Positions 23,232 to 48,713 of a DNA stretch of 64,000 nucleotides are shown here, piece by piece. Origin of the DNA: Candidatus Schekmanbacteria bacterium RIFCSPLOWO2_02_FULL_38_14. Its GTDB lineage: Bacteria > Schekmanbacteria > GWA2-38-11. The notes beneath the pieces were generated by a model. It was not told where the DNA came from. It saw only the letters and a list, made by a program, of their open reading frames with translations, and did not search any database. Where the stretch lies: assembly GCA_001790855.1 (NCBI GenBank), contig MGDH01000018.1, forward strand, positions 14,207 to 78,206, read 5' to 3'. Each line of letters opens with the position of its first letter. The first letter of the stretch is position 1. The translations under genes were made by a program, and so were the position numbers.

Positions 23232-23232
23232 C

Positions 23233-34445: not shown

Positions 34446-34949
34446 GTGGGGAAAATCCTATCTACTTTCTTTATTCTTGTTTTTATAGCTTCATTATTTT
34501 CATGCTTGAAAAGCTCAGAAGAATTACAACAGCCAATCAATTTTAATCACAAGAAACATATTGAGCAGGGAATTGAATGTGAAACCTGCCACATATACAT
34601 AAAAGAAGAAAGCTTTGCAGGACTTCCAGAGCTTCAAACCTGCCTCGACTGTCATGGGAGTCCTATAACAAAAAGCACTGAAGAGGAGAAGATAAGGAAT
34701 TTTGCAAAAAAGGGAATAAGTTTAGAATGGAAAAGAATATATAGGCTTCCTCAGCATGTATATTTCTCCCATAGAAGGCATGTAGCTTTTGCAAACTTAG
34801 AATGTCAAGTTTGTCATGGCGCAATTGGAGATGCTGTGAAGCCTCCAACAAAGCCTTTAAAGATTTTGATAATGAATGATTGCATAGATTGCCACAAGAG
34901 TTCCAAGAAAAGTAAGATAAGCGCTGATTGTATTGATTGTCATAAATAA
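34446..34949 (+). CDS. pentaheme c-type cytochrome (QrcA/ActA-like small periplasmic cytochrome)
   Basis: Signal peptide; five CxxCH (CETCH, CLDCH, CQVCH, CIDCH, CIDCH) in 167 aa. Confidence 0.8.
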   Translation: MGKILSTFFILVFIASLFSCLKSSEELQQPINFNHKKHIEQGIECETCHIYIKEESFAGLPELQTCLDCHGSPITKSTEEEKIRNFAKKGISLEWKRIYRLPQHVYFSHRRHVAFANLECQVCHGAIGDAVKPPTKPLKILIMNDCIDCHKSSKKSKISADCIDCHK

Positions 34950-34991: not shown

Positions 34992-37451
34992 ATGAAGAGA
35001 AGAAGATTTTTAAAGACATTGGGTGGAACATCAGCAGGGGTAGCACTCTCTTCTTGCACCAAGATAGAGAGTTTAAACAAAAAAATTGTAACTATAATTC
35101 CTGCAAAAGAAGAAGTAGTAGTTCCTAAAGGAGTAGAGAAATGGGTGATTTCATCATGTGGGCAATGCTCTGGAGGTTGCGGAATTAAGGTAAGACTTAT
35201 AAATGAAAGAGCTGTAAAAATTGATGGTAATCCACTGCATCCTGTAAACCAGGGAACCCTTTGTCCTAAAGGACAGTCAGGGTTACAGCTCCTTTATAAT
35301 CCAGACAGATTAAAAAGTCCTCTGAAAAGAAAAGGAAATAGGGGAGCAAATCAATGGAAAAAAATTAGCTGGGATGAGGCTGCTAAATTAGTGGTTGAAA
35401 AACTAAAAGAGATTCGAACAAATGGAAAAGCTCACCAACTAACTTTTCTATCAGGCGAATGTGGTGGTCTGATGAAAAGTTTGAGCAAAAGATTTTTAGA
35501 ATCATTCGGCTCCCCAAATTATTTTGATATTTCTGGTTCAATGGATGGTAATGACCAGGGGCCCTCAGACAGTCTTTTTGCAACTCAGGGTATCAGAAAA
35601 AATCCAGTCTATAATCTGGAAAAAACTAAATTAATTCTTTCCTTCGGCTCTAATTTTTTGGAATCTTTTTCATCTCCTGTACAGATTTCCCAGGCATATG
35701 GCTATTTCAGGAGAGAAAGGACAGGCTCAAGAGCCAAACTTATCCAAATAGACTCCAGGCTTTCAGTCACTGGCGCAAAAGCTGACGAATGGATTCCAAC
35801 AAACCCGGGCACATTAGGCGCTCTTGCACTGGGACTCGCTTATATAATTATAAAAGAGGACCTTTATGACAAGGATTTTATAGATGAAGACAGTTTTGGT
35901 TTTGAAGATTTCAAAGATGATAATGGCACATTACATCAAGGTTTTAAAAGAATGGTGCTTGATGAATATACATCCGGTGTAGTCTCCAAAATCACAGGAG
36001 TCTCAACAAATAATATAATAAGGCTTGCCAGAGAATTTGCCACAAATAAACCTGCTATTGCCATAAGTGATAAAATAGGAATATATGATCAGATAGCAAT
36101 TCATTGCCTCAATGCTTTATGCGGGAATATTGATGTTGAAGGAGGGGTTTTAGTACCTAGGGATGTCCCTCTTAAGAGCTTGCCTCCTTTTAAGCTTGAT
36201 GAGATCTCAAAAAAAGGCTTGTCAATGACAAGGGTCGACGGAAGTAACCCGGAGCAATCTTCTGTTTTTTTTAACCCTTTTAAATTTATTATAGAAGCAA
36301 ATGCAACAGGCAATCCCTATAAAATAGATGCCATTTTTATTTACAACTCAAATCCTTTATTTACTTATCCTGATAAAGAAAATTTGAAAAAATTCTTTGC
36401 AGAAATACCTTTCATCTTAAGTTTTTCCTCTTATCTTGATGAAACTTCAGAAATGGCTGATTTAATCTTACCAGATCACACCTATCTGGAAAAATGGGAA
36501 GATGTCCAGACAAACACCCTGAACGGATACCCTGTTTTAGGAATAAGACAACCTGTAGTCAGCAAAATTAATGATACCATGCACACTGGTGACTTTTTAC
36601 TGAAGGTTTCAAAAGAGATAGGGGGTCCGGTGGCGCAGGCTTTACCTTGGAATGATTTTAAAGATTTTCTTTCCTATAGCATTGAAGGAATTTACGAAAA
36701 TCAGAGTGGTAATATATTTGGACCAAAATTTGAAGAAGCATGGGTCCGCCTCCTTGAAAAAGGGGGATGGAGTATTCCTTTGCATTCATCTTTTGAAGAG
36801 TTCTGGAAAAAGGTATTAGAAAAGGGCGGCTGGTGGGATTCGATGTACTATTTTAATGAATGGAGCAGAATTTTTAATACCTTATCAGGAAAATTTGAAT
36901 TCTATTTTCAAACCCTGAAGAATGAGGTTGATAAAACAAAGGATGAAAGAAGAAAAGAGATATTTAAAATGTTAGGAGGGACTAAAGACAAAGGAAAAGA
37001 GGATAAAATATATATGCCCCATTATGAGGCAAAAGCAGAAACAAATGGAAAGAGTTATCCCTTTTATCTTAACGTCTATAAACTTATGTCGCTTTCAGGT
37101 TTAAATGTAACGAATCAGCCATGGCTTCAAGGAATTCTGGCAGTCAATGTTCCAATTAAATGGAATACATGGGTTGAAATAAATCCAGAAACTGCAAAGA
37201 AAATGGCTATATCTGAAGGAGACTTGGTTGTTGTAGAATCAATAAAAAGGAAAATAATTGTTTATGCTCATTTATATGAAGGTGCAATGCCTGAGGTAGT
37301 AAATATTCCTTTTGGGTTAGGGCATTCAGCAAATGGACGGTGGGCTAAAGATATAGGTAAGAATCCAGTTTCTATCCTGGAAGAATTTTCAGATCCGTTA
37401 ACTGGAAACTTCTTCAAAGATTACACACGGGTAAAAATCTATAAGGCTTAA
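34992..37451 (+). CDS. molybdopterin-oxidoreductase-family subunit, TAT-exported (PsrA/QrcB/ActB1-like)
   Basis: Twin-arginine signal MKRRRFLKTLGG; N-terminal CxxCxxxC...C FeS-0 motif (CGQCSGGCG...CPKG); 819 aa MopB fold. Confidence 0.8.
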   Translation: MKRRRFLKTLGGTSAGVALSSCTKIESLNKKIVTIIPAKEEVVVPKGVEKWVISSCGQCSGGCGIKVRLINERAVKIDGNPLHPVNQGTLCPKGQSGLQLLYNPDRLKSPLKRKGNRGANQWKKISWDEAAKLVVEKLKEIRTNGKAHQLTFLSGECGGLMKSLSKRFLESFGSPNYFDISGSMDGNDQGPSDSLFATQGIRKNPVYNLEKTKLILSFGSNFLESFSSPVQISQAYGYFRRERTGSRAKLIQIDSRLSVTGAKADEWIPTNPGTLGALALGLAYIIIKEDLYDKDFIDEDSFGFEDFKDDNGTLHQGFKRMVLDEYTSGVVSKITGVSTNNIIRLAREFATNKPAIAISDKIGIYDQIAIHCLNALCGNIDVEGGVLVPRDVPLKSLPPFKLDEISKKGLSMTRVDGSNPEQSSVFFNPFKFIIEANATGNPYKIDAIFIYNSNPLFTYPDKENLKKFFAEIPFILSFSSYLDETSEMADLILPDHTYLEKWEDVQTNTLNGYPVLGIRQPVVSKINDTMHTGDFLLKVSKEIGGPVAQALPWNDFKDFLSYSIEGIYENQSGNIFGPKFEEAWVRLLEKGGWSIPLHSSFEEFWKKVLEKGGWWDSMYYFNEWSRIFNTLSGKFEFYFQTLKNEVDKTKDERRKEIFKMLGGTKDKGKEDKIYMPHYEAKAETNGKSYPFYLNVYKLMSLSGLNVTNQPWLQGILAVNVPIKWNTWVEINPETAKKMAISEGDLVVVESIKRKIIVYAHLYEGAMPEVVNIPFGLGHSANGRWAKDIGKNPVSILEEFSDPLTGNFFKDYTRVKIYKA

Positions 37452-37465
37452 TCAAGAGGTATTTT

Positions 37466-38152
37466 ATGGCAAAATGGGGAATGGTTATAGATTTGGATAA
37501 ATGTACAGCCTGTCAAGCCTGCGTAGTTGCATGCCAGGCTGAAAACAACATTCCTATAGCAGGACCAAAAGAGACCCAGATGGGTAGGGCAATCCACTGG
37601 ATAGAACTAATATCTCATATAGAGGGGGAGTATCCTAACACCAAAATCAAGCTTATACCCAGACCCTGTTTCCATTGCGATGAACCCCCATGTATCAAGG
37701 TTTGTCCTGTAAGGGCTACTTATAAAAGCGAGGAAGAGGGAATAGTTGGACAGATATTCCCCAGGTGTATAGGCTGTCGTTACTGTACCACAGCATGTCC
37801 TTATACGGTACGGTATTTTAACTGGGAAAAACCCGAATGGCCGGAAATGATGAAAAACCTTCTTAATCCTGATGTATCAGTGAGGCCAAAAGGTGTTGTT
37901 GAGAAATGCAGTTTCTGCTATCACAGGCTGGTAAAGGCAAGAGAAAAAGCAAAAGCAGAAGGAAGAGATTTCTCTCCTGATGAATATATACCAGCATGTG
38001 TCCAAACATGTCCAAGCAAGGCAATGTATTTTGGTGATTTAAGCAATCCCAACAGTAAAGTCTCAATTCTGGCAAGAACCAACAGAGCTTTCAGAATTCT
38101 GGAAGATTTGGGAACAGAACCAAAGGTTATTTATCTCTCGGAAGGGGAATAG
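37466..38152 (+). CDS. 4Fe-4S ferredoxin-type electron-transfer subunit (PsrB/NrfC/QrcC-like)
   Basis: Four Cys clusters (CTACQACVVAC, CFHCDEPPCIKVCP, CIGCRYCTTACP, CSFC...C). Confidence 0.85.
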   Translation: MAKWGMVIDLDKCTACQACVVACQAENNIPIAGPKETQMGRAIHWIELISHIEGEYPNTKIKLIPRPCFHCDEPPCIKVCPVRATYKSEEEGIVGQIFPRCIGCRYCTTACPYTVRYFNWEKPEWPEMMKNLLNPDVSVRPKGVVEKCSFCYHRLVKAREKAKAEGRDFSPDEYIPACVQTCPSKAMYFGDLSNPNSKVSILARTNRAFRILEDLGTEPKVIYLSEGE

Positions 38153-38153
38153 G

Positions 38154-39488
38154 ATGGAGTTAAAGAACGCTAAAGTAAAAGATGAAGATCATATCCTCTT
38201 AGATCCAATCCTCAAAATAGGAAAGGGTTTTTATCTGACGGTAGTTATATTAGGGTCCTTTGTCCTGTTAGCAATTTATGCCTATATTACTCAATTCCAG
38301 AAAGGACTGGGGGTAACCGGATTAAATAGACCAACCTTCTGGGGAGTTTATATTACTAATTTTGTATTTTTCATAGGAATAAGCCATGCCGGCACTTTAA
38401 TATCAGCTATCCTGAGAATTGCTCAGGCTGAATGGAGAAGAGCAATTACAAGGTCTGCAGAAGTAATAACTGTTCTTGTTCTTTTCTTTGGAGTTGGGAA
38501 TATTCTGATTGATTTAGGAAGACCTGATAGGCTTTTTAATATGCTACTGTACGGCAGGTTTCAGTCACCACTCCTGTGGGATTTTGTTAGCATTTCAACC
38601 TATCTAACAGCAAGTACAATATACCTTTATCTTCCTTTAATTCCGGATATAGCCATTTTAAGAGATACTTCCGGCAAAAGAAAATGGCTATATAGTGTAT
38701 TAGCTTTAGGCTGGAAAGGAACAGAAAAGCAGCATCAAATTTTAGAAAAAGCCATAGCCATAATGGCAATATTAGTAATACCTATAGCAATTTCAGTTCA
38801 TACAGTGGTCTCTTTTGTTTTTGCAATGACAATTCAACCTATGTGGCATAGCGCAATTTTTGGCCCTTATTTTGTAGCAGGGGCGATATTTTCAGGTATT
38901 GCTGCTCTTATCATCGCCATGGCAATTATTAGAAAAGTTTATAAACTTGATAATTATCTGAAGGATATACATTTCAATAATCTGAGTCTCCTTTTGCTGG
39001 TAATGAGCTGTCTCTGGTTCTATTTTACATTCTGTGAATATATAACTGTCTTTTACGGCAGTGAACCAGTTCATTTAGCTGTCTTGTACTCTAAATTCAG
39101 CGGTGAATATGCCCTATATTTCTGGACTATGGTCGCAACCTGTTTTGTAATACCATTTTCTATCCTGTCAAACAGCAAGACCAGAACAATTACAGGTAGT
39201 GTAATAGCATCAATATCTGTAACCATTGGTATGTGGCTTGAACGTTTTACAATAGTTGTTCCAACCCTTGTTAATCCCAGACTCCCCTATGAGCGAGGCA
39301 TTTATCACCCAACATGGGTTGAGGCAGCTATAACAGCAGGCTCTCTCTCATTGTTCATTCTTCTATATATGATATTTACTAAGTTTTTCCCTATTGTATC
39401 TATCTGGGAAATAAAAGAGGGGAGAGAAAAAGGTGTAGCTGAGGTACAGGAGAGGATTAAAACTTACCTCCCTGGGTCTGAGACTTGA
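38154..39488 (+). CDS. NrfD/PsrC-family quinone-interacting integral membrane subunit (QrcD/ActC-like)
   Basis: 444 aa, ~10 TM helices; start overlaps upstream stop (translational coupling). Confidence 0.8.
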   Translation: MELKNAKVKDEDHILLDPILKIGKGFYLTVVILGSFVLLAIYAYITQFQKGLGVTGLNRPTFWGVYITNFVFFIGISHAGTLISAILRIAQAEWRRAITRSAEVITVLVLFFGVGNILIDLGRPDRLFNMLLYGRFQSPLLWDFVSISTYLTASTIYLYLPLIPDIAILRDTSGKRKWLYSVLALGWKGTEKQHQILEKAIAIMAILVIPIAISVHTVVSFVFAMTIQPMWHSAIFGPYFVAGAIFSGIAALIIAMAIIRKVYKLDNYLKDIHFNNLSLLLLVMSCLWFYFTFCEYITVFYGSEPVHLAVLYSKFSGEYALYFWTMVATCFVIPFSILSNSKTRTITGSVIASISVTIGMWLERFTIVVPTLVNPRLPYERGIYHPTWVEAAITAGSLSLFILLYMIFTKFFPIVSIWEIKEGREKGVAEVQERIKTYLPGSET

Positions 39489-39501: not shown

Positions 39502-40731
39502 ATGTTTCAAATGGGATTTTTGAAATTAGTCTTTAGAAAATGGCGAATGAACTACAAGGTGTTCTTTTTAATATTAATCATATTTTCTTTTCTGCCATTA
39601 AATATTCATTCTGAGAAGAATACTAATCTTTTCCCTGAAAACCCTCTGGAAGGCTCGAAGATATTTGTGATTAAAGGTTGTGTAAAGTGTCATGCCATTA
39701 AGGGAGAGGGAGGAAATATAGGGGCAGATCTAGGCAAAGTCACCTTTAAAGATACATTGCTTGATATGGCAGGAATTATGTGGAACCATTTTCCGTTTAT
39801 GAGTGAAAAAATGGAGGAGGAGAAGATTGACTGGCCAAAGTTTTTAAGTGGGGAAATGGCAAGTCTAATAGGCTACCTTTATTATATAAATTATTTTGAT
39901 GAGCCAGGCAATACTAAAAAGGGAGAAAATTTATTTTCAGTAAAAGGGTGCGCGCAATGCCATGGCATAGAAAAAAAAGGTGGCAAACCAGGACCAAGTT
40001 TAAGTAAGTTTAAACGTGACTACTCACCAATCTTCATGGCACAAGCTATGTGGAATCATGGTTCTGAAATGGAGGCATCCATGAAGAAATTAGGGATTAA
40101 GAGACCTCAGTTTAATGATAAAGAGATGGCTGACCTATCTGCTTATATTAGAAAAGAAGCAAGAGGGGAAAAGAAGGGATATGGTTTTATGTTGCCTGGA
40201 AATCCAAAAGAGGGGAAACAACTTTTTAACAAAAAAGGATGCATACACTGTCATGCCATTTCAAATGAAGGTGGAAACATAGGGCCAGACCTTGGCAAAA
40301 AGGCAGAAGAGCTGCACAGGAGTCTAAATGAAGTAGCAGGCATTATGTGGAATCACTGGCCTAATATGTATAGAAAAATGATAGAGATGAGAATAGAGGT
40401 TCCAAGTTTTTCAGATAAAGAGATGGCAGACATAATAGCATATCTCTATTTTCTTGGATACTTTGATGAAAAAGGAGATATGAAAAAGGGGTCTATAATT
40501 TTCAATGAGAAGGGGTGTATTAAATGTCATTTTTTTGATGGAAAACAAATGATAGGGCCTGATTTGAGAAAATTATCTAATACTACTTCTTCCATAGAAG
40601 TTGTTACAGAGATGTGGAACCATGCCTCAAAGATGAAAAATAAAATGGCAGAGCTTAAAATCCAATGGCCCAAATTCAAAAAAGGCGAGGTAGCAGACCT
40701 TATGCAATATCTCAGGTCTTTAAAAAAATAA
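39502..40731 (+). CDS. tetra-domain c-type cytochrome (four class-I monoheme repeats, each with CxxCH...GG...MWNH)
   Basis: CVKCH, CAQCH, CIHCH, CIKCH each followed by GEGG/KGG and an MWNH motif ~25 residues later; N-terminal membrane anchor or signal. Confidence 0.75.
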   Translation: MFQMGFLKLVFRKWRMNYKVFFLILIIFSFLPLNIHSEKNTNLFPENPLEGSKIFVIKGCVKCHAIKGEGGNIGADLGKVTFKDTLLDMAGIMWNHFPFMSEKMEEEKIDWPKFLSGEMASLIGYLYYINYFDEPGNTKKGENLFSVKGCAQCHGIEKKGGKPGPSLSKFKRDYSPIFMAQAMWNHGSEMEASMKKLGIKRPQFNDKEMADLSAYIRKEARGEKKGYGFMLPGNPKEGKQLFNKKGCIHCHAISNEGGNIGPDLGKKAEELHRSLNEVAGIMWNHWPNMYRKMIEMRIEVPSFSDKEMADIIAYLYFLGYFDEKGDMKKGSIIFNEKGCIKCHFFDGKQMIGPDLRKLSNTTSSIEVVTEMWNHASKMKNKMAELKIQWPKFKKGEVADLMQYLRSLKK

Positions 40732-40854
40732 CAGGCTGCTTAATGTCATTTCTGCCTGCCTGTCGGCACCTGTCTGCCGCCTGACTGCCGTCAGGCAGGT
40801 CAGGCTGGGACAGGTAAGAGCAGGAATCCAAAAGCAAAGGAGGTTAATAATCTT

Positions 40855-41115
40855 TTGAATCAGCAGAGAGAAGTAATAAAAAATAAATCTGTAAATATTT
40901 TTCAATTACTGATGCTATTTGCTTTCTACTTGTTTGTTGGATCCATAATTGCCTTTGTTGTCAATGGAATTTATAATGCATTGGAAAATAATGATGCTTT
41001 TATGTATTCTATAGTTATAGGAGCAATAGTTATTCCTGTATTTTTGACTTTAACTATTCTGGTTACATTAGTTTTCTGGGTCATCGTGAGAGAAGGCAGG
41101 AAGGATATGAGGTAG
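40855..41115 (+). CDS. small 2-TM membrane protein (possible complex-associated subunit)
   Basis: 86-aa ORF with two hydrophobic helices between the two paralogous cytochrome genes; weak evidence only. Confidence 0.3.
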   Translation: MNQQREVIKNKSVNIFQLLMLFAFYLFVGSIIAFVVNGIYNALENNDAFMYSIVIGAIVIPVFLTLTILVTLVFWVIVREGRKDMR

Positions 41116-41120
41116 AGTTT

Positions 41121-42347
41121 ATGAAGAATCTAAAGAAAATTACCATCTATATGTTTTCAGTTTTTTTGATAGTAGGGTCATTATTAACCGTAGGAATAAA
41201 TGTTGTTTGCAGCACAGAAAAATACCTTTTGCCTGGAGATGCTAAAAAAGGGTGGCAGAGTTTTTTCACCAAAGGGTGCATCAAATGCCATTCTGTTTGG
41301 GGAGAGGGAGGTACAGCCGGTCCTAATCTTGGCATTACACCCTCTAAGCATTTGACTGAAGCAGAGCTTACAGCAGCCATGTGGAACCATGCTCCGGCAA
41401 TGTGGGAGAAAATGTTAGCAAAAGGGATAGATTTTAAAGCCATAAGCCAGGAAGAAATGGCTGATATATTCGCATTTCTCTACTTTATTAGATATATGGA
41501 TGAGCCAGGTAATAAGGAAAATGGAAAAGAGTTGCTGGCCACAAAAAAATGCACTAATTGCCATGCAATTCATGGAAAAGGAGGCAGAGTAGGGCCCGAG
41601 CTGACAAAATGGGGAACATATACTAATCCAATTCTGTGGGCGCAGATGATGTGGAATCATGCACCCCAGATGGAAGAGGAAATGAGGAACAGAGGAATAA
41701 CCTGGCCAATATTTGGTGAAAACGAGATGGTTGATATTATTGTTTATGTAAAGAGTGTCAGTAAATCGGGAGATAAAATTTTTATTTCACCAGGTGACTC
41801 AAAAGACGGTAAAATACTGTTTTCTAAAAAGGGTTGCAGCCATTGCCATTCTACCGAGACAGGTAGCAAAAAGGATGGACCAAATCTTGGAAGGGATTTA
41901 AGAAAAAAAGAATCTTTCCCAAGGACTATTACTCAGGTTGCAGGCCTTATGTGGAACCATTCTCCTGAAATGTGGAAAGAGATGAAAGAAAAGGGAATGA
42001 AGAGGCCAGAGCTCAATCCTCAAGAGATGGCAGATTTAATCGCATATCTTTTTTCTCTCCAATATTTTGATGAGCAAGGAAACAGAGAAAAAGGAGAAAA
42101 GGTATTTAAAGAAAAATATTGCATAAAGTGTCATACAGTGAATGGCAAAGGCGGTCTGAAAGGTCCTGACCTTAAGGAATGGCGCAGGCAGGTTTCGCCA
42201 ATTTCCATGGCGCAAGCTATGTGGAACCATGGTCCTTCAATGTTGGGAGAAATGAAAAAAATGGGCTTTAAATGGCCAAAGTTTGAAGGAAATGAGATAG
42301 TGGATTTGATGGAATATTTAAGAGAACTGGCTAATAAAACACTTTAA
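41121..42347 (+). CDS. tetra-domain c-type cytochrome, paralog of 39502-40731
   Basis: CIKCH, CTNCH, CSHCH, CIKCH with the same four-repeat layout and MWNH motifs; 408 vs 409 aa. Confidence 0.75.
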   Translation: MKNLKKITIYMFSVFLIVGSLLTVGINVVCSTEKYLLPGDAKKGWQSFFTKGCIKCHSVWGEGGTAGPNLGITPSKHLTEAELTAAMWNHAPAMWEKMLAKGIDFKAISQEEMADIFAFLYFIRYMDEPGNKENGKELLATKKCTNCHAIHGKGGRVGPELTKWGTYTNPILWAQMMWNHAPQMEEEMRNRGITWPIFGENEMVDIIVYVKSVSKSGDKIFISPGDSKDGKILFSKKGCSHCHSTETGSKKDGPNLGRDLRKKESFPRTITQVAGLMWNHSPEMWKEMKEKGMKRPELNPQEMADLIAYLFSLQYFDEQGNREKGEKVFKEKYCIKCHTVNGKGGLKGPDLKEWRRQVSPISMAQAMWNHGPSMLGEMKKMGFKWPKFEGNEIVDLMEYLRELANKTL

Positions 42348-42379: not shown

Positions 42380-43549
42380 ATGAAATATAAAAAACATTTT
42401 ATTTTCCTTATTTTTTTTCTCCTGCTTTATATTAATGTAATTTATGGATTTTCCAAGGATTGGCTGGAAAAGTTAAGTTCTGAATTTAAAGGACAAGAAT
42501 TTATCTCATCCAATATCTGTGGCAAATGTCATGTTGATATTTTCAAGTATTGGAAGAATTCTATGCATTCCCTCTCTTATCAAGACCCGATTTTTATGAA
42601 TGCGTATAAACAGGCTTTTTTCGATACTGACGGGAAGGCAAAAGAGTTTTGCCTTAGATGCCATGCCCCTATTGCTTACTATAGTAAAGACTTTGGATTC
42701 AAAAATGAAGTGAGCAAAGAGGGTATTACATGTGACTTCTGTCATTCTGTTTCTGGAATAGACCTGGATAATTTTAATCAACCTTATAAAGTTGAACCTA
42801 GTAAGACAAAATATGGTCCGCATAAGAATATGGAATCTCCGGTTCATATTACCAAGGCAACAAATTATTTTAGAAGATCTGAATTCTGTGCCGGCTGCCA
42901 TGAGCTTAAAGGAAAGAACGGAGTCAACATCATAAGTACTTACTCAGAGTGGAAAGAAGGGCCTTATTCCAAAAAAGGAATCCAATGTCAAAACTGCCAT
43001 ATGCCTTACGGTCCAGGCTCCATCGTTGACCAGAACCTAAAAAAGAGTGTGGTTAGAATGAATTTGCATGATGTCTCCGGAGGTCATTCAGTGGAACTTC
43101 TTGGTAAAGTAGCAAAGGTAGAAATTATAGAGCTTAAAAAGGGGGATGGAACTATTTCTGCCAAAGTTAAAGTAACAAATGTCAAATCCGGACACAAAAT
43201 ACCTACAGGCACCCCTACAAGAGAGTTGATTCTCAAAGTAACAGTAAAAAATTCCAAAGGGAATACACTGTGTCAAGACTCCAAAGTTATTAAAAAAACC
43301 TTGGCAGATGAGCAAAATAAAGAGCTCCTGACTGACAGCGATATTATTCTGAATGCAAATAGTATCTTGAGTGATAACCGGATTCCCCCAGGAGGCTCAA
43401 GAGAGTTTCTCTTTTCATTAGACTGCAATTTAAAAGGTGAATTTTTTGTTGAAGCATCGCTGATTTATATGTATAGACCTGAAATCACTACCTACGGGGA
43501 AATGTCAATTGATATGTCTAAGGATAGTAAAAAATTAGGTGTTAAATAG
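42380..43549 (+). CDS. pentaheme c-type cytochrome, periplasmic (389 aa)
   Basis: Signal peptide; CGKCH, CLRCH, CDFCH, CAGCH, CQNCH; C-terminal ~150 aa heme-free beta-rich region. Confidence 0.75.
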   Translation: MKYKKHFIFLIFFLLLYINVIYGFSKDWLEKLSSEFKGQEFISSNICGKCHVDIFKYWKNSMHSLSYQDPIFMNAYKQAFFDTDGKAKEFCLRCHAPIAYYSKDFGFKNEVSKEGITCDFCHSVSGIDLDNFNQPYKVEPSKTKYGPHKNMESPVHITKATNYFRRSEFCAGCHELKGKNGVNIISTYSEWKEGPYSKKGIQCQNCHMPYGPGSIVDQNLKKSVVRMNLHDVSGGHSVELLGKVAKVEIIELKKGDGTISAKVKVTNVKSGHKIPTGTPTRELILKVTVKNSKGNTLCQDSKVIKKTLADEQNKELLTDSDIILNANSILSDNRIPPGGSREFLFSLDCNLKGEFFVEASLIYMYRPEITTYGEMSIDMSKDSKKLGVK

Positions 43550-43672: not shown

Positions 43673-44245
43673 ATGAGAAAAAGAACAGCCTTGGTTTTTG
43701 TGTTTATATTTTTCTCTTTAATTTTAATTAGTAAAGTTCCAGGCGAAGAGACAAAATATAATTACATGGGTGTATTTAAATGCAAGACCTGCCATGCAAA
43801 TGTAAAGCTTGGTGGAACTGAGCATCAGGTATGGGAAAAAAGTGCCCATTCAAAGGCATACCAGACTTTGGCAAGTGAAAAAGCTAAAGCAAAGGCAAAG
43901 GAGCGGGGCATTGATGATCCTCAGAAGAGTGAGAAATGCTATAAGTGTCATGTGACAGGCTATGGGGTTGATAAAAGCAGATTTGATAAAAAGTTTAAAA
44001 TTGAAGATGGTATTCAGTGTGAAGAGTGCCATGGTCCTGGAGAGGGTTATTATCCCCGGTTTGTGATGCAGAAAAGAGATGAGTCAATAAAGAAGGGTTT
44101 GATAATTCCAGATGAAAAGGTATGTGTTAAGTGCCATAATGAAGAGAGCCCTTTTTATAAAAAATTTAATTTCAAAGAATTTTTTGCAAAGATGGATCAC
44201 AAGGGCCTTGGAACAAGTAAAGTAGGAGGAGGGAGTAAGAAGTAG
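43673..44245 (+). CDS. tetraheme c-type cytochrome (190 aa)
   Basis: Signal peptide; CKTCH, CYKCH, CEECH, CVKCH; own RBS aggagg upstream. Confidence 0.75.
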   Translation: MRKRTALVFVFIFFSLILISKVPGEETKYNYMGVFKCKTCHANVKLGGTEHQVWEKSAHSKAYQTLASEKAKAKAKERGIDDPQKSEKCYKCHVTGYGVDKSRFDKKFKIEDGIQCEECHGPGEGYYPRFVMQKRDESIKKGLIIPDEKVCVKCHNEESPFYKKFNFKEFFAKMDHKGLGTSKVGGGSKK

Positions 44246-44298: not shown

Positions 44299-46203
44299 AT
44301 GAATGAAAAGAAATACAAAGTAGAGATTCCAGATTTAGAATATTACCAGCGTGTAATTAATTGCCAGTATGCCTGTCCAGTTAAAACTGCTGCTGGAAGC
44401 TATGTTACTGCAATTACAGATAGGGAATATGAAAAGGCTTATGATTTTGCAAGAATGCCAAATCCCTTTGTTTATGTCTGTGGAAGGATATGTGACCATC
44501 CATGTGAAACAGCCTGCAGGCGTGGTGCTATTGATGAGCCAATAGCAATATGCGCCCTTAAGAGAACAGCCACTGACCACCATAATTTGAGTTTAGGTCA
44601 TTGGCTAGGCTTGCCTCTTGAAAAGAAAAGAGAGGAAAAGGTAGCTGTTATTGGCGCAGGACCAGCAGGTTTATCAGCAGCCAATGATTTAGCAAGGCTC
44701 GGTTATCAGGTTACTGTTTTTGAAGCATCACCTGTCGCTAGTGGAATGTTATATCTTGGTCTGCCAGGTTATCGCCTGCCAAGAGATATAATCAAATTAG
44801 AGGTTGATTCCATATTAAACCTTGGGGTTGAGCTTAAGACAAATACTCCTTTGGGTGAAGGGTTGAATTTAGAGGATTTAAAGAGGCAAAAATATAAGGC
44901 AATTTTTATTGCTACAGGATGCACAAAAAGCAGGGATTTAAATATAGAAGGAGCTAATCTTGACGGGGTCTTAAAGGGTGTTGATTTTCTCTTAAACATT
45001 AACCTCGGTTATAGGGTTGAACTTGGGAAGAGGGTCATTGTAATTGGTGGTGGAAATGTGGCAATGGATGTGGCTCGTTCAGCTATCAGAAAAGGAACAG
45101 AGCTTGAATCTTTAAGCCCTGAGGAGATGAAAGATGCTTTGGAAAAGGCAAGAAAGGCATTACAGCAATTGGTTGAGAGTGAAGAGGAGAGAGAAAAGGA
45201 GATGCACATTGCAATGGATGTTGCAAGGTTAGCTCTGAGAAAAGGGGCAAAGGATGTGCATTTAGTCTGCCTTGAATCAAGAGAAGAGATGCCTGCCCAT
45301 GCTTGGGAGACAGAAGAAGCATTCGCAGAGGGGATTGTGTTTCATAATAGACTCGGGCCAAAAAGGATTTTAGGAAGAGATGGAAAGGTTACAGGCATTG
45401 AGACCATTAGATGCTCGTCGGTTTTTGATAGTGAGCATAGATTTAATCCAACCTTTATCAAAGGGACAGAAGAATTTATTGAGGCTGATTCAATTATTTT
45501 GGCTATTGGCCAGGCAGCAGATATCTCTTTTTTCAAGAAAGAGGATGGCATTTCAATAACTCGCCAGGGTTTGATAGAAGTTAATCCTGACACCCTCGCA
45601 ACAACAGCAGATGGAATTTATGCAGGTGGAGATATAGCTTTTGGGCCAAGAAATGTTATTGCAGCAATTGCAGATGGACAGAAGGCTGCAAGGTCAATTG
45701 ACTCTTATTTAAGAGGAGAGAGCAAGAAAAGGATTCGGGCAAGAATGGCAGTGATTAAGGATCATAAGATGCATGAAGGATATGAGAGAATCAAAAGGCA
45801 GAAAATGCCTACATTGCCACTTAATAGAAGGATTGGCATTGCTGAGGTAGAATTAGGTTTTTCTGATGAACAGGCAATAGAAGAAGGGAAGCGATGCCTC
45901 AGATGCAATATAAATACAGTCTTTAATGGTAATAAATGTATCCTGTGTGGTGGGTGTGTAGATATATGTCCTGAATATTGCTACAGAATGGCAAAAATTG
46001 AAGAGTTAGAAGAGAATGAGGTTCTTGAAAAGTTAGTTGAAGCAAGATATGGCATTTCTTTTGAAAAATTAAAAAGTGAAAGTGGTTTAAACAGGGCTAT
46101 GATAAAGGATGAAGAGAAATGCATTAGATGCGGCCTATGTGCTGAGCGCTGCCCTACTGGTGCTATTACTATGGAGCTTTTTGAATATAGTGAAAGGATT
46201 TAA
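44299..46203 (+). CDS. NfnB/GltD/SudA-like FAD- and NAD(P)-binding iron-sulfur oxidoreductase with C-terminal 2x[4Fe-4S] ferredoxin domain
   Basis: N-terminal Cys cluster (CQYACP...C), FAD motif VAVIGAGPAGLSAANDLARLGYQVTVFE, second Rossmann VIVIGGGNVAMDVA, C-terminal CILCGGCVDICP and CIRCGLCAERCP. Confidence 0.75.
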   Translation: MNEKKYKVEIPDLEYYQRVINCQYACPVKTAAGSYVTAITDREYEKAYDFARMPNPFVYVCGRICDHPCETACRRGAIDEPIAICALKRTATDHHNLSLGHWLGLPLEKKREEKVAVIGAGPAGLSAANDLARLGYQVTVFEASPVASGMLYLGLPGYRLPRDIIKLEVDSILNLGVELKTNTPLGEGLNLEDLKRQKYKAIFIATGCTKSRDLNIEGANLDGVLKGVDFLLNINLGYRVELGKRVIVIGGGNVAMDVARSAIRKGTELESLSPEEMKDALEKARKALQQLVESEEEREKEMHIAMDVARLALRKGAKDVHLVCLESREEMPAHAWETEEAFAEGIVFHNRLGPKRILGRDGKVTGIETIRCSSVFDSEHRFNPTFIKGTEEFIEADSIILAIGQAADISFFKKEDGISITRQGLIEVNPDTLATTADGIYAGGDIAFGPRNVIAAIADGQKAARSIDSYLRGESKKRIRARMAVIKDHKMHEGYERIKRQKMPTLPLNRRIGIAEVELGFSDEQAIEEGKRCLRCNINTVFNGNKCILCGGCVDICPEYCYRMAKIEELEENEVLEKLVEARYGISFEKLKSESGLNRAMIKDEEKCIRCGLCAERCPTGAITMELFEYSERI

Positions 46204-46210
46204 GCAGAAG

Positions 46211-46345
46211 GGTTCGAGGATTCGAGGGTTCAAATGAAAATCAAAGTTTAAAAATAAAAAATTAAAATTTTGGTATTTGAATTTTGATATTTGATTTTTA
46301 TTTCACTTGAACCCTTGACACCTAGACCCCTTGAACCCTTTTTTG
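46211..46345. repeat. palindromic element, family A variant with GC-rich arms (gggttcgagg...cttgaaccc)
   Basis: gggttcgaggattcgagggttcaaatg...ttcacttgaacccttgacacctagaccccttgaaccc; arms match those of 15531-15668. Confidence 0.55.
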
Positions 46346-46355
46346 AGGTTAACTA

Positions 46356-46829
46356 ATGTCTAAAGACGAAAAAATAGAGGAAATTTCACGTAGATATTTT
46401 TTAGCAGCAGGATGGTCATCTCTTGGCATTATTATGGCTGGCTCAGCCGGTGCAAGCATTCGCTTCTTGCTCCCCAATGTTCTTTTTGAGCCTCCAACTT
46501 CTTTTAGAATTGGAAAGCCTGAAGACTATGCTGATGGTTCAGTAAATTTTTTTCCTGAGAGAAAGATCTTTGTAATTAAAAAAGAGAATGGAATTTTTCA
46601 AACTATCTCTGCAGTATGCACTCATCTACGTTGTATTGTGAAATGGTCAGAGACAAACAAGAATTTTGAGTGCCCCTGCCATGGAAGTATATTTGATGGG
46701 AAAGGCAGAATTATTGGTGGACCTGCTCCAACACCACTTGACTGGTATGAGATAACACTTGGAGAGGATGGTAAATTGTTCATAGATACTATGAAAGTTG
46801 TGGATAGCGGATATTATTTAAAGGTATAA
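46356..46829 (+). CDS. Rieske [2Fe-2S] iron-sulfur subunit of a cytochrome bc-type complex
   Basis: TAT-like RRYFLAAG; CTHLRC...CPCHGS Rieske boxes. Confidence 0.85.
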   Translation: MSKDEKIEEISRRYFLAAGWSSLGIIMAGSAGASIRFLLPNVLFEPPTSFRIGKPEDYADGSVNFFPERKIFVIKKENGIFQTISAVCTHLRCIVKWSETNKNFECPCHGSIFDGKGRIIGGPAPTPLDWYEITLGEDGKLFIDTMKVVDSGYYLKV

Positions 46830-46987
46830 AACATTTCTCCTCATCCTTTATCCTTCTCCCCATAGGGGAGAAGGCAGGTTGAGGGGGAGAAGAAAAACAT
46901 TCAACCCCAGAAGGGGTTTCCCACAGGAAATTGTGGGAGAGAATAAGAGGGACGACAGAGACGTCGTTCCCTACATGATAGGATAAT

Positions 46988-48472
46988 ATGGGGAATATAT
47001 TAAGCAAGTGGACTGAAAGAATTACACAAAACAGAATCTGGAAATCAATTTTCAGACATGGCTATCCTGATACAGAGCTTAATCAATCCCTTGTCATGTA
47101 TACCAATCTTTTTCTTCATATTCAACCTGTAAAGGTTCATAAAAATGTTTTAAGACCATCATATACCTTAAGCCTTGGTTTGATCTCTTTTATACTATTT
47201 CTTGTCCTTGTAATAACAGGGATATATTTAATGTTCTATTATGTCCCTTCAGTTGACAGGGCTTACAATGATATGAAGGAGCTTCAATTTGTTGTCTCCT
47301 TTGGCATATTTTTGAGAAACCTGCACCGATGGTCAGCTCATGGAATGGTGGCTGCAGTATTTTTACATATGTGCAGGGTTTTCTATACGGCTTCTTATAA
47401 ACCTCCAAGAGAATTTAACTGGGTCTTAGGAGTTATACTTTTAATAGTGACATTTGGTTTAAGTTTTACAGGCTATCTTCTTCCCTGGGACCAGCTTGCT
47501 TTCTGGGCAATTACAGTGGGTACAAGCATTGCCAGCTATGCACCAATTATTGGGCAGAAACTACGCTATTTTCTGTTAGGTGGGAATATTGTTGGGCAGA
47601 ATGCTCTTTTGCGGTTTTACGTTCTCCACTGCGTTGTTCTGCCATCAGTTGCTGCTGTCTTAATAGGAATACATTTCTGGCGGATAAGAAAGGATGGAGG
47701 GTTATCAAAGCCTGCAGAAAAATTAAAACAAGAAGAAAAGTTTGAAGAGCTGCAGGAAGAAGGGCTTTCCCCAAAAGGAACAAGTAAGACTTATGGTTTA
47801 ATGGAACTTGTAAAAGGTGCTACTATTCCTGTAGAACAGGAGCCCGAGAATGAGATAATGTCATGGCCACATTTGATCTTTAGAGAGTTCCTTGTCGCCA
47901 TAGTTGTTTTAGTAGTGCTTATTGCTATTTCCTTATTTTTTAATGCACCTCTTGAGGAGCTTGCAAATCCTTCAGAGCCTCCGAATCCAGCAAAGGCTCC
48001 ATGGTATTTCTTAGGACTTCAGGAGCTTGTATCTTATTCAGCCTTTATAGGAGGTGTAATTACACCTTTTCTTGTTGTTTTTGCGCTCCTGATGGCAATA
48101 CCTTATATAGATTACAGAGCAGAAGATGTGGGGATATGGTTTTCCTCTAAGAAGGGTCGTTTAATAGCATTAATTACAGCAACCCTGACATTAATAAGTA
48201 TTCCTGTCTTGATTTTTCTTAATATGAAATACGGGATTAGAGTTTTCTACCCTGATGCTCCTTCAATTCTTGTGGATTTGATAAATCCTGGAACAATTCT
48301 GATTGGAGTTACAGCAGTTATCTCAATTATTATAGGGGTCCGCACTAAGTCATGGAGGTTAGCTGCCATGATGATATTTACCTCCTTTGTAACTGGTTTT
48401 ATTGTGTTGACTGTTATTGGAACATTATTCAGGGGTCCTAACTGGGAGTTTGTTTTCCCATGGAAAGGATAA
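46988..48472 (+). CDS. cytochrome b (fused b6 + subunit-IV-like, 494 aa) of bc-type complex
   Basis: Conserved cytochrome b N-terminus ([12 protein letters not shown] ... [10 protein letters not shown]) and C-terminal PEWY-region equivalent ([10 protein letters not shown]); additional C-terminal TM helices. Confidence 0.85.
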
Positions 48473-48508
48473 AAAAATATATAGGAGTCTGTCAGAGAAC
48501 CCTTTTTT

Positions 48509-48659: not shown

Positions 48660-48713
48660 AAGAAAACTCATATTATTTAGAATTTCGAATTTAGGATTTT
48701 AGATTTTAAATAC

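What the first reader, a model, noticed from the sequence alone, without database searches (positions are those of the whole stretch)
39502..42347. Tandem paralogous tetra-domain c-type cytochromes with a repeated CxxCH...GG...MWNH signature
Two adjacent ~408-aa proteins each consist of four ~100-aa class-I-like heme domains, separated by a small membrane ORF. Every domain carries CxxCH followed by a Gly-rich turn (GEGG/KGGG) and a strictly repeated M-W-N-H motif. Examples are AGIMWNHFPFM, AQAMWNHGSEM, AGLMWNHSPEM and AQAMWNHGPSM. Eight near-identical domain repeats in series suggest a molecular wire or a multivalent docking partner for the flanking complexes. The MWNH motif probably supplies the distal Met or His ligand.
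Basis: seen in the sequence. Interest (0 to 1): 0.6.

Follow-up and report, generated by a model that had tools for sequence, protein, structure and literature searches.

The report
Paired four-haem cytochromes beside respiratory complexes
Two neighbouring genes each encode a chain of four small haem domains with an unusual conserved W-N-H-x-P-x-M signature, and this uncharacterised pair almost always sits next to two membrane respiratory complexes in uncultured sediment bacteria, so it probably carries electrons between them.

Summary
ORFs 39502-40731 (409 aa) and 41121-42347 (408 aa) each carry four CxxCH and four MWNH motifs. The eight domains are only 32-53% identical, not near-identical.

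The window comes from a Candidatus Schekmanbacteria genome bin. The proteins belong to a large family known only from metagenomes: at least 472 clusters at 50% identity, nearly all with four domains, carrying only generic names. No curated family model is specific to it, and no multi-domain structural relative exists in the PDB.

The conserved core is W-N-H-x-P-x-M. The Met of "MWNH" is only 62% conserved. The His (90%) and the Met four residues later (91%) are the candidate sixth haem ligands. Both lie in a predicted long helix.

In 44 of 53 loci the genes directly follow an alternative-complex-III/Qrc-like module. In 30 of 44 a Rieske/cytochrome b complex with an NAD(P)-binding subunit follows. 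Natural A-B fusions exist.

Best reading: the two proteins replace monohaem ActE as a dedicated eight-haem relay. The direction of electron flow and the ligand identity are unresolved.

This is a new variant of a known kind, of moderate interest.

The parts
34446..34949 (+). Pentahaem c cytochrome, ActA-like (5 CxxCH; N-terminal LFSC lipobox-like signal)
   Evidence: Pfam Cytochrome_C7. Five CxxCH. The four best PDB sequence hits are all ACIII ActA chains (8k9e_A E 2.5e-24, 6lod_A, 6btm_A, 6f0k_A). Conserved upstream of the cytochrome pair in most loci.
34992..37451 (+). Molybdopterin-family subunit 'B1' (QrcB/ArrA-like) with TAT signal
   Evidence: Pfam Molybdopterin, Molybdop_Fe4S4 and Molydop_binding. 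NCBIfam QrcB 310 bits (cut-off 440), PhsA 301, ArrA 295. PDB ArrA E 3.6e-73. The Cys molybdenum ligand of ArrA/PsrA aligns to Ser/Asp.
37466..38152 (+). Fe-S subunit 'B2' (QrcC-like / C-terminal part of ActB)
   Evidence: NCBIfam QrcC 316 bits (cut-off 400). Best PDB hits are the C-terminal part of ACIII ActB (6f0k_B E 3.1e-57).
38154..39488 (+). NrfD-family membrane subunit, ActC-like
   Evidence: Pfam NrfD. PDB ActC 6f0k_C E 1e-75 and 6btm_C 1.7e-68. NCBIfam QrcD only 41 bits against a cut-off of 570. 65-77% identical in related loci.
39502..40731 (+). Tetrahaem class-I-type cytochrome A (409 aa). Domains: 39628-39897, 39898-40188, 40189-40464, 40465-40728. CxxCH at 39679, 39949, 40240, 40516. 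MWNH at 39778, 40048, 40345, 40612.
   Evidence: AF2 pLDDT 85.0, pTM 0.79, with each MWNH inside a long helix.
40732..40854 (+). GC-rich structured intergenic spacer inside the operon
   Evidence: RNA MFE -52.2 kcal/mol, z -4.1, 0 of 200 shuffles as stable. Unique in the window. No Rfam family above threshold.
40855..41115 (+). Small two-helix membrane protein (86 aa, TTG start)
   Evidence: SD AAGGAGG 10 nt upstream; stop 5 nt before the cytochrome B start. Conserved at the same position in L032 (77%) and L007 (43%). No Pfam, NCBIfam or PHROG family.
41121..42347 (+). Tetrahaem class-I-type cytochrome B (408 aa). Domains: 41226-41498, 41499-41783, 41784-42068, 42069-42344. CxxCH at 41277, 41550, 41835, 42120. 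MWNH at 41379, 41649, 41949, 42219.
   Evidence: 100% identical to P0001 (Candidatus Schekmanbacteria, 'hypothetical protein'). AF2 pLDDT 86.4, pTM 0.81.
42380..43549 (+). Pentahaem c554-family multihaem cytochrome (389 aa)
   Evidence: Pfam Cytochrome_C554. Five CxxCH. Present at this place only in the window, L001 and a few others.
43673..44245 (+). Tetrahaem c554-like cytochrome (190 aa)
   Evidence: Pfam Cytochrome_C554 72.6 bits. Four CxxCH.
44299..46203 (+). GltD-like NAD(P)-binding Fe-S flavoprotein (634 aa)
   Evidence: Pfam Pyr_redox_2, Fer4_20, Fer4. NCBIfam PRK12771 464 bits. Starts within 2.5 kb downstream of the pair in 30 of 44 loci.
46356..46829 (+). Rieske [2Fe-2S] protein
   Evidence: Pfam Rieske. 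Conserved in related loci.
46988..48472 (+). Cytochrome b (b6 plus a subunit-IV-like part fused, 494 aa)
   Evidence: Pfam Cytochrome_B and Cytochrom_B_N_2. Split into 239 + 185 aa genes in L004.
48714..49808 (+). Pentahaem cytochrome with two FixO/NorC-type class I domains (364 aa)
   Evidence: Pfam Cytochrom_C and FixO. Carries the canonical ...P.S.MP Met-ligand motif and not W-N-H. This is the likely c-type subunit of the Rieske/cytochrome b complex.

Best explanation
**What they are.** Cytochrome A and cytochrome B are paralogous exported tetrahaem c-type cytochromes. Each is a rigid chain of four class-I-type domains, built by duplicating a two-domain unit.

**Where they act.** They are the c-cytochrome partner subunits of the alternative-complex-III/Qrc-type quinone-reactive module encoded directly upstream. 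That module comprises a pentahaem ActA-like protein, a molybdopterin-like B1, an Fe-S B2 and an ActC-like membrane subunit. The pair sits where ACIII operons carry the monohaem ActE.

**What they do.** Together they offer eight haems in series. These move electrons between that module and periplasmic partners. The most likely partner is the co-encoded Rieske/cytochrome b complex, which carries a GltD-like NAD(P)-binding subunit and its own multihaem cytochromes.

**Haem ligation.**
- The canonical Met-ligand loop of class I cytochromes has been lost.
- The distal face is instead covered by a long helix bearing W-N-H-x-P-x-M.
- I infer that the Met (His+4) is the sixth ligand. Trp, Asn and His would then hold the propionates.
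- This gives His/Met haems and a flow of quinol to ACIII-like module to cytochromes A/B to acceptor.

**Shown:** sequence, domain architecture, family size, motif conservation, fold class, synteny, fusions.

**Inferred:** physical association, ligand identity, redox potential, direction of flow.
For: **Architecture**
- Four CxxCH per protein.
- Pfam Cytochrom_C far above cut-off.
- AF2 pLDDT 86/85 with pTM 0.81/0.79. The inter-domain linkers are confidently modelled.

**Neighbouring module is ACIII-like**
- Best PDB sequence hits: ActA E 2.5e-24, ActB C-terminal part 3e-57, ActC 1e-75.

**Synteny** (figures; gene orders)
- An ActC-like gene ends less than 1.5 kb upstream of the first cytochrome in 44 of 53 loci.
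- A tandem pair is present in 42 of 51 loci.
- A GltD-like gene lies immediately downstream in 30 of 44 loci.
- 56 of 60 loci of at least 9 kb hold an ActC-like or a Rieske/cytochrome b gene.

**A and B work as one unit**
- The first gene always matches A best and the second matches B best.
- P0121 (768 aa, eight domains) is an A-half plus B-half fusion.

**Motif**
- In 597 domains from 150 cluster representatives: W 94%, H 90%, the Met at H+4 91%, but the Met of MWNH 62% and the Met at H+8 56%.
- His is replaced mostly by Lys, Ser, Asn, Arg or Thr while the Met is kept, in 50 domains.
- The Trp aligns with Trp59 of mitochondrial cytochrome c.

**Literature**
Against: - There is no direct evidence of physical association.
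- Gene order varies. The cytochrome precedes the ActA-like gene in L069, L078 and L086. It sits next to Rieske/cytochrome b with no ACIII-like genes in range in L089, L097 and L103.
- Ligand identity is unresolved. 43 domains keep the His but lack the Met. Sequence alignments to cytochrome c disagree: HMMER puts Met80 on an Ile, while hhalign puts it on the less conserved Met at H+8.
- B1 is ArrA-like over its full length and might still be catalytic.
- No terminal oxidase or reductase is encoded in the window.
Confidence: 0.52

Rival explanations
1. **Qrc-like direction.** The upstream module works as a menaquinone reductase, as QrcABCD does in Desulfovibrio. Cytochromes A and B are then low-potential bis-His cytochromes, with the His of W-N-H as sixth ligand. 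They would feed periplasmic electrons into the quinone pool.
For: - B1 and B2 score best against QrcB and QrcC models. They are separate, TAT-exported proteins as in Qrc.
- Most hosts are Thermodesulfobacteriota/Syntrophales-type genome bins from anoxic habitats.
- The position equivalent to the canonical Met ligand is Ile/Leu/Val.
- 43 family domains keep the His but have lost the Met at His+4, some with no Met left in the region.
Against: - The membrane subunit is ActC-like (E 1e-75), not QrcD-like (41 bits against a cut-off of 570).
- The multihaem subunit has five haems and matches ActA.
- The Met at His+4 is as conserved as the His (91% against 90%).
- Where the His is lost it becomes Lys, Ser, Asn or Arg, which suggests a hydrogen-bonding or charge role, while the Met stays.
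Confidence: 0.2
2. The pair belongs mainly to the Rieske/cytochrome b-GltD complex. It would be that complex's high-potential acceptor (a cytochrome c1/f substitute or first partner), and its adjacency to the ACIII-like genes would be secondary.
For: - A GltD-like gene plus cytochrome b and Rieske follow the pair in about two-thirds of loci.
- Loci L089, L097, L103 and L108 have family members beside Rieske/cytochrome b genes with no ACIII-like module in range. In L101 and L102 the cytochrome follows the Rieske/cytochrome b/cytochrome c genes.
- NAD(P)-linked Rieske/cytochrome b complexes are proposed to need a favourable high-potential branch (PMC12954380).
Against: - 44 of 53 loci have the ActC-like gene immediately upstream.
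- L020, L053, L055 and L070 keep the ACIII-like genes and the cytochrome without Rieske/cytochrome b in range.
- The Rieske/cytochrome b operon already encodes its own c cytochrome with canonical class I domains.
Confidence: 0.13
3. The two proteins are free soluble periplasmic carriers, comparable to cytochrome c4 or c2. They would be merely co-regulated with the respiratory genes, with no fixed complex and no wire geometry.
For: - In most relatives cytochrome B has an ordinary cleavable-looking signal peptide (for example ...QAAGA/EKK in L004). No lipobox or C-terminal anchor is seen.
- JGI annotates relatives as 'cytochrome c2'.
Against: - The paralogue pair, its order and the four-domain count are all strictly conserved, and A-B fusions exist.
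- The predicted inter-domain geometry is rigid (pTM about 0.8).
- In two lineages a conserved small membrane protein is encoded between the two genes.
Confidence: 0.1
4. The proteins have a catalytic or sensory role, such as NorC/FixO-like, SoxX-like or peroxidase-like, and are not simple electron-transfer proteins.
For: - Some relatives are auto-named 'nitric oxide reductase subunit C'.
- NCBIfam SoxX and TIGR02603 summed scores exceed their cut-offs.
- A His/Met pair one helical turn apart could in principle open a coordination site.
Against: - The SoxX and TIGR02603 scores are sums over 2-3 repeated domains. For TIGR02603 only 38 of 134 profile positions match.
- Pfam FixO scores 18 bits against a cut-off of 29.6.
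- No NorB, SoxA or other catalytic partner is nearby.
Confidence: 0.03

Closest known systems
ActE, the monohaem cytochrome c subunit of alternative complex III (Rhodothermus marinus 6F0K, Flavobacterium johnsoniae 6BTM)
   Same: Both are class-I-type c cytochromes encoded just after the ActC-type membrane subunit in an act-type cluster. ActE is the presumed haem exit from the Fe-S/ActA chain to periplasmic partners.
   Different: - Four haem domains instead of one, and two paralogues instead of one gene.
- No lipobox.
- The distal motif is W-N-H-x-P-x-M.
- The surrounding module has a split ActB, an ArrA/QrcB-like B1, and no ActD or ActF.
[quoted passage not shown]
   Same: A four-haem protein takes ActE's place in an ACIII-like cluster. 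That cluster also carries extra Fe-S/NrfD/multihaem modules, as the Thermodesulfobacteriota loci here do.
   Different: - It is only a one-sentence genome annotation.
- Sequence homology to this family was not tested here.
- No tandem pair, motif, family survey or Rieske/cytochrome b link was reported.
Tandem class I cytochromes: dihaem cytochrome c4 (1ETP), dihaem Kustd1711 (7ZS0), trihaem subunits of membrane-bound alcohol and fructose dehydrogenases (8GY2_B, 9JQA_C)
   Same: These are several class I domains in one chain, used as fixed electron relays.
   Different: - No PDB chain matches the two- or four-domain arrangement.
- All of these keep canonical Met loops.
Mitochondrial-type cytochrome c / c2
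   Same: - The N-terminal half is shared (G-x3-F-x2-K-C-x2-C-H...G-P-x-L).
- So are the Trp59-equivalent Trp and the C-terminal E-x-x-D-L-I-A-Y-L helix.
- Profile E 3e-8 to rice cytochrome c; hhalign probability 96.6% to horse cytochrome c.
   Different: - About 11 residues of the 70s loop are missing.
- The Met80-equivalent position is Ile/Leu/Val.
- The region after the Trp is predicted as one long helix.
- Foldseek TM-score is only about 0.47.
QrcABCD menaquinone reductase of Desulfovibrio, and NAD(P)-oxidoreductase-bearing Rieske/cytochrome b complexes of Kuenenia (PMC12954380) - for the flanking modules
   Same: - Like Qrc, there are separate TAT-exported QrcB/QrcC-like subunits.
- Like the Kuenenia complexes, there is a Rieske/b6-type complex with a GltD-like NAD(P)/FAD/Fe-S subunit and multihaem cytochromes.
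   Different: - The membrane subunit is ActC-like, not QrcD-like.
- The hosts are not anammox bacteria.
- Neither known system includes four-domain class I cytochromes.
- Homology of the GltD-like protein to Kuste4570/Kustd1483 was not tested.

Membership tests
Class I c-type cytochrome domain (Pfam PF00034 / PF13442) | One CxxCH near the N-terminus of each roughly 90-aa domain, with a profile score above the curated cut-off | tested here: met
   Eight CxxCH, one per domain. PF00034 scores 124 and 119 bits against a cut-off of 21.3. PF13442 scores 76 and 72 bits against 27.
Class I c-type cytochrome domain (Pfam PF00034 / PF13442) | Class I fold, with N- and C-terminal helices around the haem pocket | tested here: met
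   [not shown]
Class I c-type cytochrome domain (Pfam PF00034 / PF13442) | Sixth ligand Met in the loop about 16-17 residues before the aromatic residue of the C-terminal helix | tested here: not met
   That position (profile position 67) is Ile/Leu/Val in most domains; 39 of 597 have Met. Candidate ligands lie 9-13 residues earlier, in a predicted helix.
ACIII subunit ActE | Encoded in an act-type cluster downstream of ActC | tested here: met
   Cytochrome A starts 13 nt after the ActC-like gene. The same is true in 44 of 53 related loci.
ACIII subunit ActE | Single haem c | tested here: not met
   Four CxxCH per protein. 134 of 150 family representatives have four domains.
ACIII subunit ActE | N-terminal lipoprotein anchor | tested here: not met
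   No lipobox in either N-terminus (...NIHS/EK and ...INVVCS). Relatives have AGA/EK-type signal peptides. Judged by eye, with no predictor run.
ACIII subunit ActE | Specific sequence or structural similarity to solved ActE chains | tested here: inconclusive
   [not shown]
Alternative complex III (the flanking module) | ActA-like pentahaem, ActB-type Fe-S module and ActC-type NrfD subunit | tested here: met
   PDB hits: ActA 2.5e-24, ActB C-terminal part 3.1e-57, ActC 1e-75.
Alternative complex III (the flanking module) | Second NrfD-type subunit ActF and membrane subunit ActD | tested here: not met
   There is only one NrfD-family gene in the window cluster. The only small membrane ORF (40855-41115) has no family match.
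Qrc complex (the flanking module) | QrcB, QrcC and QrcD equivalogs above the NCBIfam cut-offs | tested here: not met
   QrcB scores 310 bits against a cut-off of 440. QrcC scores 316 against 400. QrcD scores 41 against 570.
SoxX (TIGR04485) | A single SoxX domain partnered with SoxA in a sox cluster | tested here: not met
   Scores of 82 and 75 bits exceed the cut-off of 61 only as sums over 2-3 repeated domains. SoxA scores 17-21 bits against a cut-off of 110. There are no sox genes nearby.
NorC / FixO (CcoO) cytochromes | Profile match, the W..H..NP....P.S.MP ligand motif, and an adjacent catalytic subunit | tested here: not met
   Pfam FixO scores 18 bits against a cut-off of 29.6. That motif is present in the neighbouring 364-aa cytochrome but absent from A and B. 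There is no NorB or CcoN.
Cytochrome c4 (dihaem) | Two class I domains in the c4 pseudo-twofold arrangement | tested here: not met
   [not shown]

The most novel reading that the evidence does not exclude
Cytochromes A and B would form one fixed eight-haem periplasmic rod. This rod would be the shared high-potential arm of a previously undescribed respiratory super-module in uncultured Thermodesulfobacteriota, Schekmanbacteria and Nitrospinota. It would couple an ACIII/Qrc-type quinone module to an NAD(P)-linked, electron-bifurcating Rieske/cytochrome b complex of the kind so far proposed only for anammox bacteria. The His and Met one helical turn apart on the distal helix (W-N-H-x-P-x-M) would act as a switchable ligand pair that gates or tunes electron flow.
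Probability: 0.12. Interest if true: 0.75.

Novelty: new variant of a known kind. Interest (0 to 1): 0.45.

Why it matters
**An unmodelled family.** This is a large, metagenome-only family: at least 472 clusters at 50% identity with profile E below 1e-30. It has no specific curated family model, no solved structure and no named member. Yet it occupies a fixed place between two quinone-reactive respiratory complexes in abundant sediment and groundwater lineages.

**Why the ligand matters.** Whether the haems are His/Met or His/His would settle the direction in which the ACIII/Qrc-like module runs.

**A wider question.** The work would also test whether NAD(P)-linked Rieske/cytochrome b complexes, and the bifurcation proposed for them, exist outside anammox bacteria.

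**A structural point.** The family is a clear example of a class I cytochrome that has lost the canonical Met loop and rebuilt its distal side from a helix.

Tried and rejected
**Literature**
- A search for 'MWNH' gave only unrelated hits.
- 'Schekmanbacteria + cytochrome' gave nothing about this cluster.
- Searches combining ACIII, Rieske and bifurcation terms gave only the MBNT15 note and the Caldithrix actABCEED cluster.

**Searches that could not be run or gave nothing**
- A Foldseek search against afdb50 was not possible because the library is absent.
It worked with the full-length alignment.
- Model coordinates are not exposed. Iron-ligand and haem-haem distances therefore could not be measured, and the ligand question stayed open.

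**Attempts to decide the ligand**
- Transfer by alignment gave conflicting answers. HMMER puts Met80 of cytochrome c on Ile67. hhalign puts it on Met62. The c551 alignment stops before its Met61.
- I looked for mutually exclusive loss of His54 and Met58. Double losses (8-10 of 597) are not fewer than independence predicts, so the test says nothing.

**Annotations rejected**
- SoxX, TIGR02603, NorC/FixO, c550 and Haem_bd annotations result from summed or partial domain scores.

**Small ORF and intergenic hairpin**
- The small ORF has no Pfam, NCBIfam or PHROG family.
- The intergenic hairpin has no Rfam family above threshold.

**Names**
- Cluster-member look-up of ten divergent representatives returned only generic or absent names.


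Full report
**1. What is in the sequence**

- Each has four CxxCH and four MWNH motifs at regular spacing, and the quoted peptides are all present.
- MWNH occurs eight times in the six-frame translation of the whole window, all in these two genes. Composition predicts 0.0017 occurrences.
- A and B are 41.8% identical over their full length. They also align when shifted by two domains (44.8%).
- The eight roughly 90-aa domains are 32-53% identical. They fall into odd (1, 3) and even (2, 4) classes.
- The history is therefore mono- to di- to tetra-domain, followed by gene duplication. The repeats are old, not near-identical.
- Invariant positions among the eight domains are G9, K16, C18, C21, H22, G32, L35, M51-W52-N53-H54, M58, M62 and E76.
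- The Gly-rich turn is present in six of the eight domains.
- Pfam sees only generic Cytochrom_C/Cytochrome_CBB3.
- NCBIfam SoxX and TIGR02603 scores exceed their cut-offs only as sums over repeated or partial matches.

**2. The gene between them**

- The ORF at 40855-41115 (86 aa, TTG start) has an AAGGAGG Shine-Dalgarno sequence 10 nt upstream. It ends 5 nt before the cytochrome B start codon.
- It is predicted to have two hydrophobic helices.
- It is called as a gene and is 77% identical at the same place in another Schekmanbacteria bin (L032). It is 43% identical in a Nitrospinae bin (L007).
- It is therefore a real gene, but lineage-restricted. Most Thermodesulfobacteriota loci have only 10-110 nt between A and B.
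- The 123-nt spacer before it is GC-rich and strongly structured (-52.2 kcal/mol, z -4.1). It matches no Rfam family above threshold.

**3. The family**

- Cytochrome B is 100% identical to a 'hypothetical protein' of Candidatus Schekmanbacteria bacterium RIFCSPHIGHO2_02_FULL. The word-index search found 2889 relatives, mostly about 389 aa long. They are unnamed or auto-named 'cytochrome c2', 'mono/diheme cytochrome c' or 'nitric oxide reductase subunit C'.
- A profile of the eight single domains, searched against 1.84 billion cluster representatives, found 5890 proteins at E<=1e-3 and 472 at E<=1e-30. Of the best 150, 134 have exactly four domains.
- Both A-like (96) and B-like (54) classes are represented. 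P0121 (768 aa, eight domains) is an A-like half fused to a B-like half.
- Ten divergent representatives carry only generic names or none.
- In species-representative genomes all 31 loci come from genome bins: 27 are Thermodesulfobacteriota, 'Deltaproteobacteria' or Syntrophaceae-type, and the rest are one Syntrophorhabdus, one Nitrospinae, one Acidobacteriota and one unclassified bacterium.

**4. The motif and the fold**

Conservation in 597 domains from the 150 representatives:

| Position | Conservation |
|---|---|
| C, C and H of CxxCH | 97% each |
| G9 | 96% |
| W52 | 94% |
| M58 (His+4) | 91% |
| H54 | 90% |
| N53 | 84% |
| P56 | 69% |
| M51 (the Met of 'MWNH') | 62% (Leu 25%) |
| M62 | 56% |

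- The family signature is therefore W-N-H-x-P-x-M.
- When the His is lost, it is mostly replaced by Lys, Ser, Asn, Arg or Thr, and the Met is kept (50 domains).
- When the Met is lost, it becomes Ile, Val, Leu and others, and the His is kept (43 domains). Some of these have no Met left in the region.
- Double losses are not rarer than chance, so conservation alone does not decide the ligand.
- Sequence-profile comparison shows a genuine but distant relation to mitochondrial-type cytochrome c. Rice cytochrome c scores E 3e-8 over the whole domain, and horse cytochrome c gives hhalign probability 96.6%.
- In these alignments the Trp aligns with Trp59, the propionate-binding Trp of cytochrome c. 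That role for Trp59 is established knowledge, not tested here.
- The canonical Met-ligand position is not kept. HMMER aligns Met80 to an Ile/Leu/Val position. hhalign needs an 11-residue deletion to put Met80 on the poorly conserved M62.
- AlphaFold2 models are confident: B has pLDDT 86.4 and pTM 0.81, and A has 85.0 and 0.79.
- In both models every W-N-H-x-P-x-M lies inside a roughly 20-residue helix. M51, H54, M58 and M62 then fall on one face of that helix (i, +3, +7, +11).
- The high pTM and the well-modelled short linkers argue for a rigid four-domain body.
- Foldseek finds no multi-domain match in the PDB, and single cytochromes c reach a TM-score of only about 0.47.
- The other class I domains in the same cluster (the 364-aa cytochrome) carry the canonical ...P.S.MP ligand motif. 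The W-N-H type is therefore specific to A and B.

**5. Context**

All genes from 34446 to at least 49808 are on the + strand, with short spacers.

Upstream module:
- A pentahaem cytochrome whose four best PDB sequence matches are ACIII ActA chains (E 2.5e-24).
- A TAT-signal molybdopterin-family protein. It scores NCBIfam QrcB 310 bits against a cut-off of 440, and PDB ArrA E 3.6e-73. The Cys molybdenum ligand of ArrA/PsrA aligns to Ser/Asp.
- An Fe-S protein. It scores QrcC 316 bits against a cut-off of 400, and its best PDB hits are the ActB C-terminal part (3.1e-57).
- An NrfD-family protein that matches ActC at 1e-75 but QrcD at only 41 bits.

This is an ACIII/Qrc hybrid, with a split ActB and no ActD or ActF. 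Cytochromes A and B sit where ActE would be.

Downstream genes:
- Two c554-type multihaem cytochromes.
- A GltD-like NAD(P)/FAD/Fe-S protein.
- A Rieske protein.
- A fused b6/subunit-IV cytochrome b.
- A pentahaem cytochrome with FixO-type domains.
- An MtrC-like decahaem and an EB_dh-domain haem protein.

Synteny across 111 related loci from genomes and metagenomes (figures; gene orders):
- An ActC-like gene ends within 1.5 kb upstream in 44 of 53 loci with enough flank.
- A tandem pair is present in 42 of 51 loci.
- A GltD-like gene follows in 30 of 44 loci.
- 56 of 60 loci of at least 9 kb contain an ActC-like or a Rieske/cytochrome b gene.
- Gene order varies in the more distant loci. The cytochrome lies before the ActA-like gene in L069, L078 and L086. 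It lies beside Rieske/cytochrome b only in L089, L097 and L103.
- The family is therefore linked to both complexes.
- The samples overlap partly (for example L014 and L063 are the same contig). They are also biased towards relatives at least 38% identical.

**6. How it most likely works**

Best-supported reading (confidence about 0.5):
- A and B are exported electron-transfer proteins. They replace monohaem ActE as the c-cytochrome partner of the ACIII/Qrc-like module.
- They form an eight-haem relay between that module and periplasmic partners. The first candidate partner is the co-encoded Rieske/cytochrome b-GltD complex.

The ligand:
- I favour Met58 (His+4) as the sixth ligand, at roughly 55%.
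- It is as conserved as the His.
- The Trp-to-Met spacing (+6) resembles the W-G-P-I-P-M of Pseudomonas c551 (+5).
- The His substitutions are polar or basic, as expected for a propionate partner. This is an inference from established knowledge of c551-type cytochromes.
- The His as ligand remains a live alternative, at roughly 30%.

Direction:
- His/Met haems would fit quinol oxidation, as in ACIII.
- Bis-His haems would fit quinone reduction, as in Qrc.

The GltD-bearing Rieske/cytochrome b complex:
- It is of the kind described for Kuenenia. There it is proposed to split quinol electrons between NAD(P)+ and a favourable high-potential branch (PMC12954380).
- A and B would be a natural sink for that branch. 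This is inference only.

**7. Comparison with what is known**

- The closest functional analogue is ActE, but membership fails on haem number and anchor. Specific similarity could not be shown.
[quoted passage not shown] Duplicated ActE is reported in Caldithrix. ActE variation is therefore known at annotation level.
- Neither this family, nor its motif, its paired and fused organisation, nor its link to NAD(P)-type Rieske/cytochrome b complexes has been described in the literature I could search.
- Tandem class I cytochromes such as c4, Kustd1711 and the dehydrogenase trihaem subunits match only at single-domain level.

**8. Verdict**

- It is a large unmodelled family that is a new variant of a known kind: a multi-domain class I cytochrome c used as a respiratory-complex partner.
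The 'near-identical repeats' and 'Met of MWNH' points are not supported.
- Interest is moderate (0.45). It would rise if the eight-haem unit proves to couple the two complexes, or if the His/Met pair proves to be a ligand switch.

Noticed in passing
window 40732-40854: A GC-rich spacer inside the operon, in a genome of about 37% GC. It folds into a very stable RNA structure (-52.2 kcal/mol, z -4.1). It is unique in the window and matches no Rfam family above threshold. The related bin L032 has different hairpins at the same place. It may be an intra-operon processing or stability element.
   Followed up: partly
window 44299-49808: A GltD-like NAD(P)/FAD/Fe-S protein, a Rieske protein, a fused cytochrome b6/subunit IV (494 aa) and a pentahaem cytochrome. 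This is a Rieske/cytochrome b complex with an NAD(P)-oxidoreductase subunit, the type proposed to make NAD(P)H by bifurcation in Kuenenia (PMC12954380). Here it occurs in Schekmanbacteria and in many Thermodesulfobacteriota bins.
   Followed up: partly
window 34992-37451: The molybdopterin-family subunit has a TAT signal followed by a lipobox-like LSSC. It is ArrA-like over its full length (E 3.6e-73). The Cys molybdenum ligand of ArrA/PsrA aligns to Ser/Asp. Whether it still binds a cofactor is open.
   Followed up: partly
window 50001-52790: An MtrC/MtrF-like decahaem cytochrome (929 aa) with an N-terminal SpaA-type Ig domain. The gene has 45-48% GC against 36-40% in its surroundings. This could reflect horizontal acquisition or a composition effect.
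   Followed up: no
window 53150-54679: A 509-aa protein that combines TIG/IPT and EB_dh (ethylbenzene-dehydrogenase-type haem-binding) domains with two CxxCH and one CxxxCH. It is probably an extracytoplasmic haem protein associated with the MtrC-like gene.
   Followed up: no
L004 493-3202 and the equivalent region of most Thermodesulfobacteriota loci: A second quinone module lies directly upstream of the ActA-like gene: a small multihaem cytochrome, an Fe-S protein and an NrfD protein, with no molybdopterin subunit. It is absent from the window, where a histidine kinase and a LuxR-type regulator (32186-34274) sit instead.
   Followed up: partly
L004 11338-11811: In Thermodesulfobacteriota loci a cNMP-binding-domain protein (157 aa) sits between cytochrome B and the GltD-like gene. 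The window has two c554-type multihaem cytochromes at that place.
   Followed up: no
window 20058-25712 (- strand): An RND efflux operon of CusCBA type: AcrB-family pump, CusB/HlyD_D23 adaptor and outer-membrane factor. With FadL at 18553-19857, it shows the organism has an outer membrane and hence a periplasm.
   Followed up: no
window 56060-58267 (- strand) and 61313-61993 (- strand): A 735-aa ORF and a 226-aa ORF have no Pfam match at E<=1e-5. They lie next to an amine-oxidase-type flavoprotein and a B12-binding radical SAM protein.
   Followed up: no
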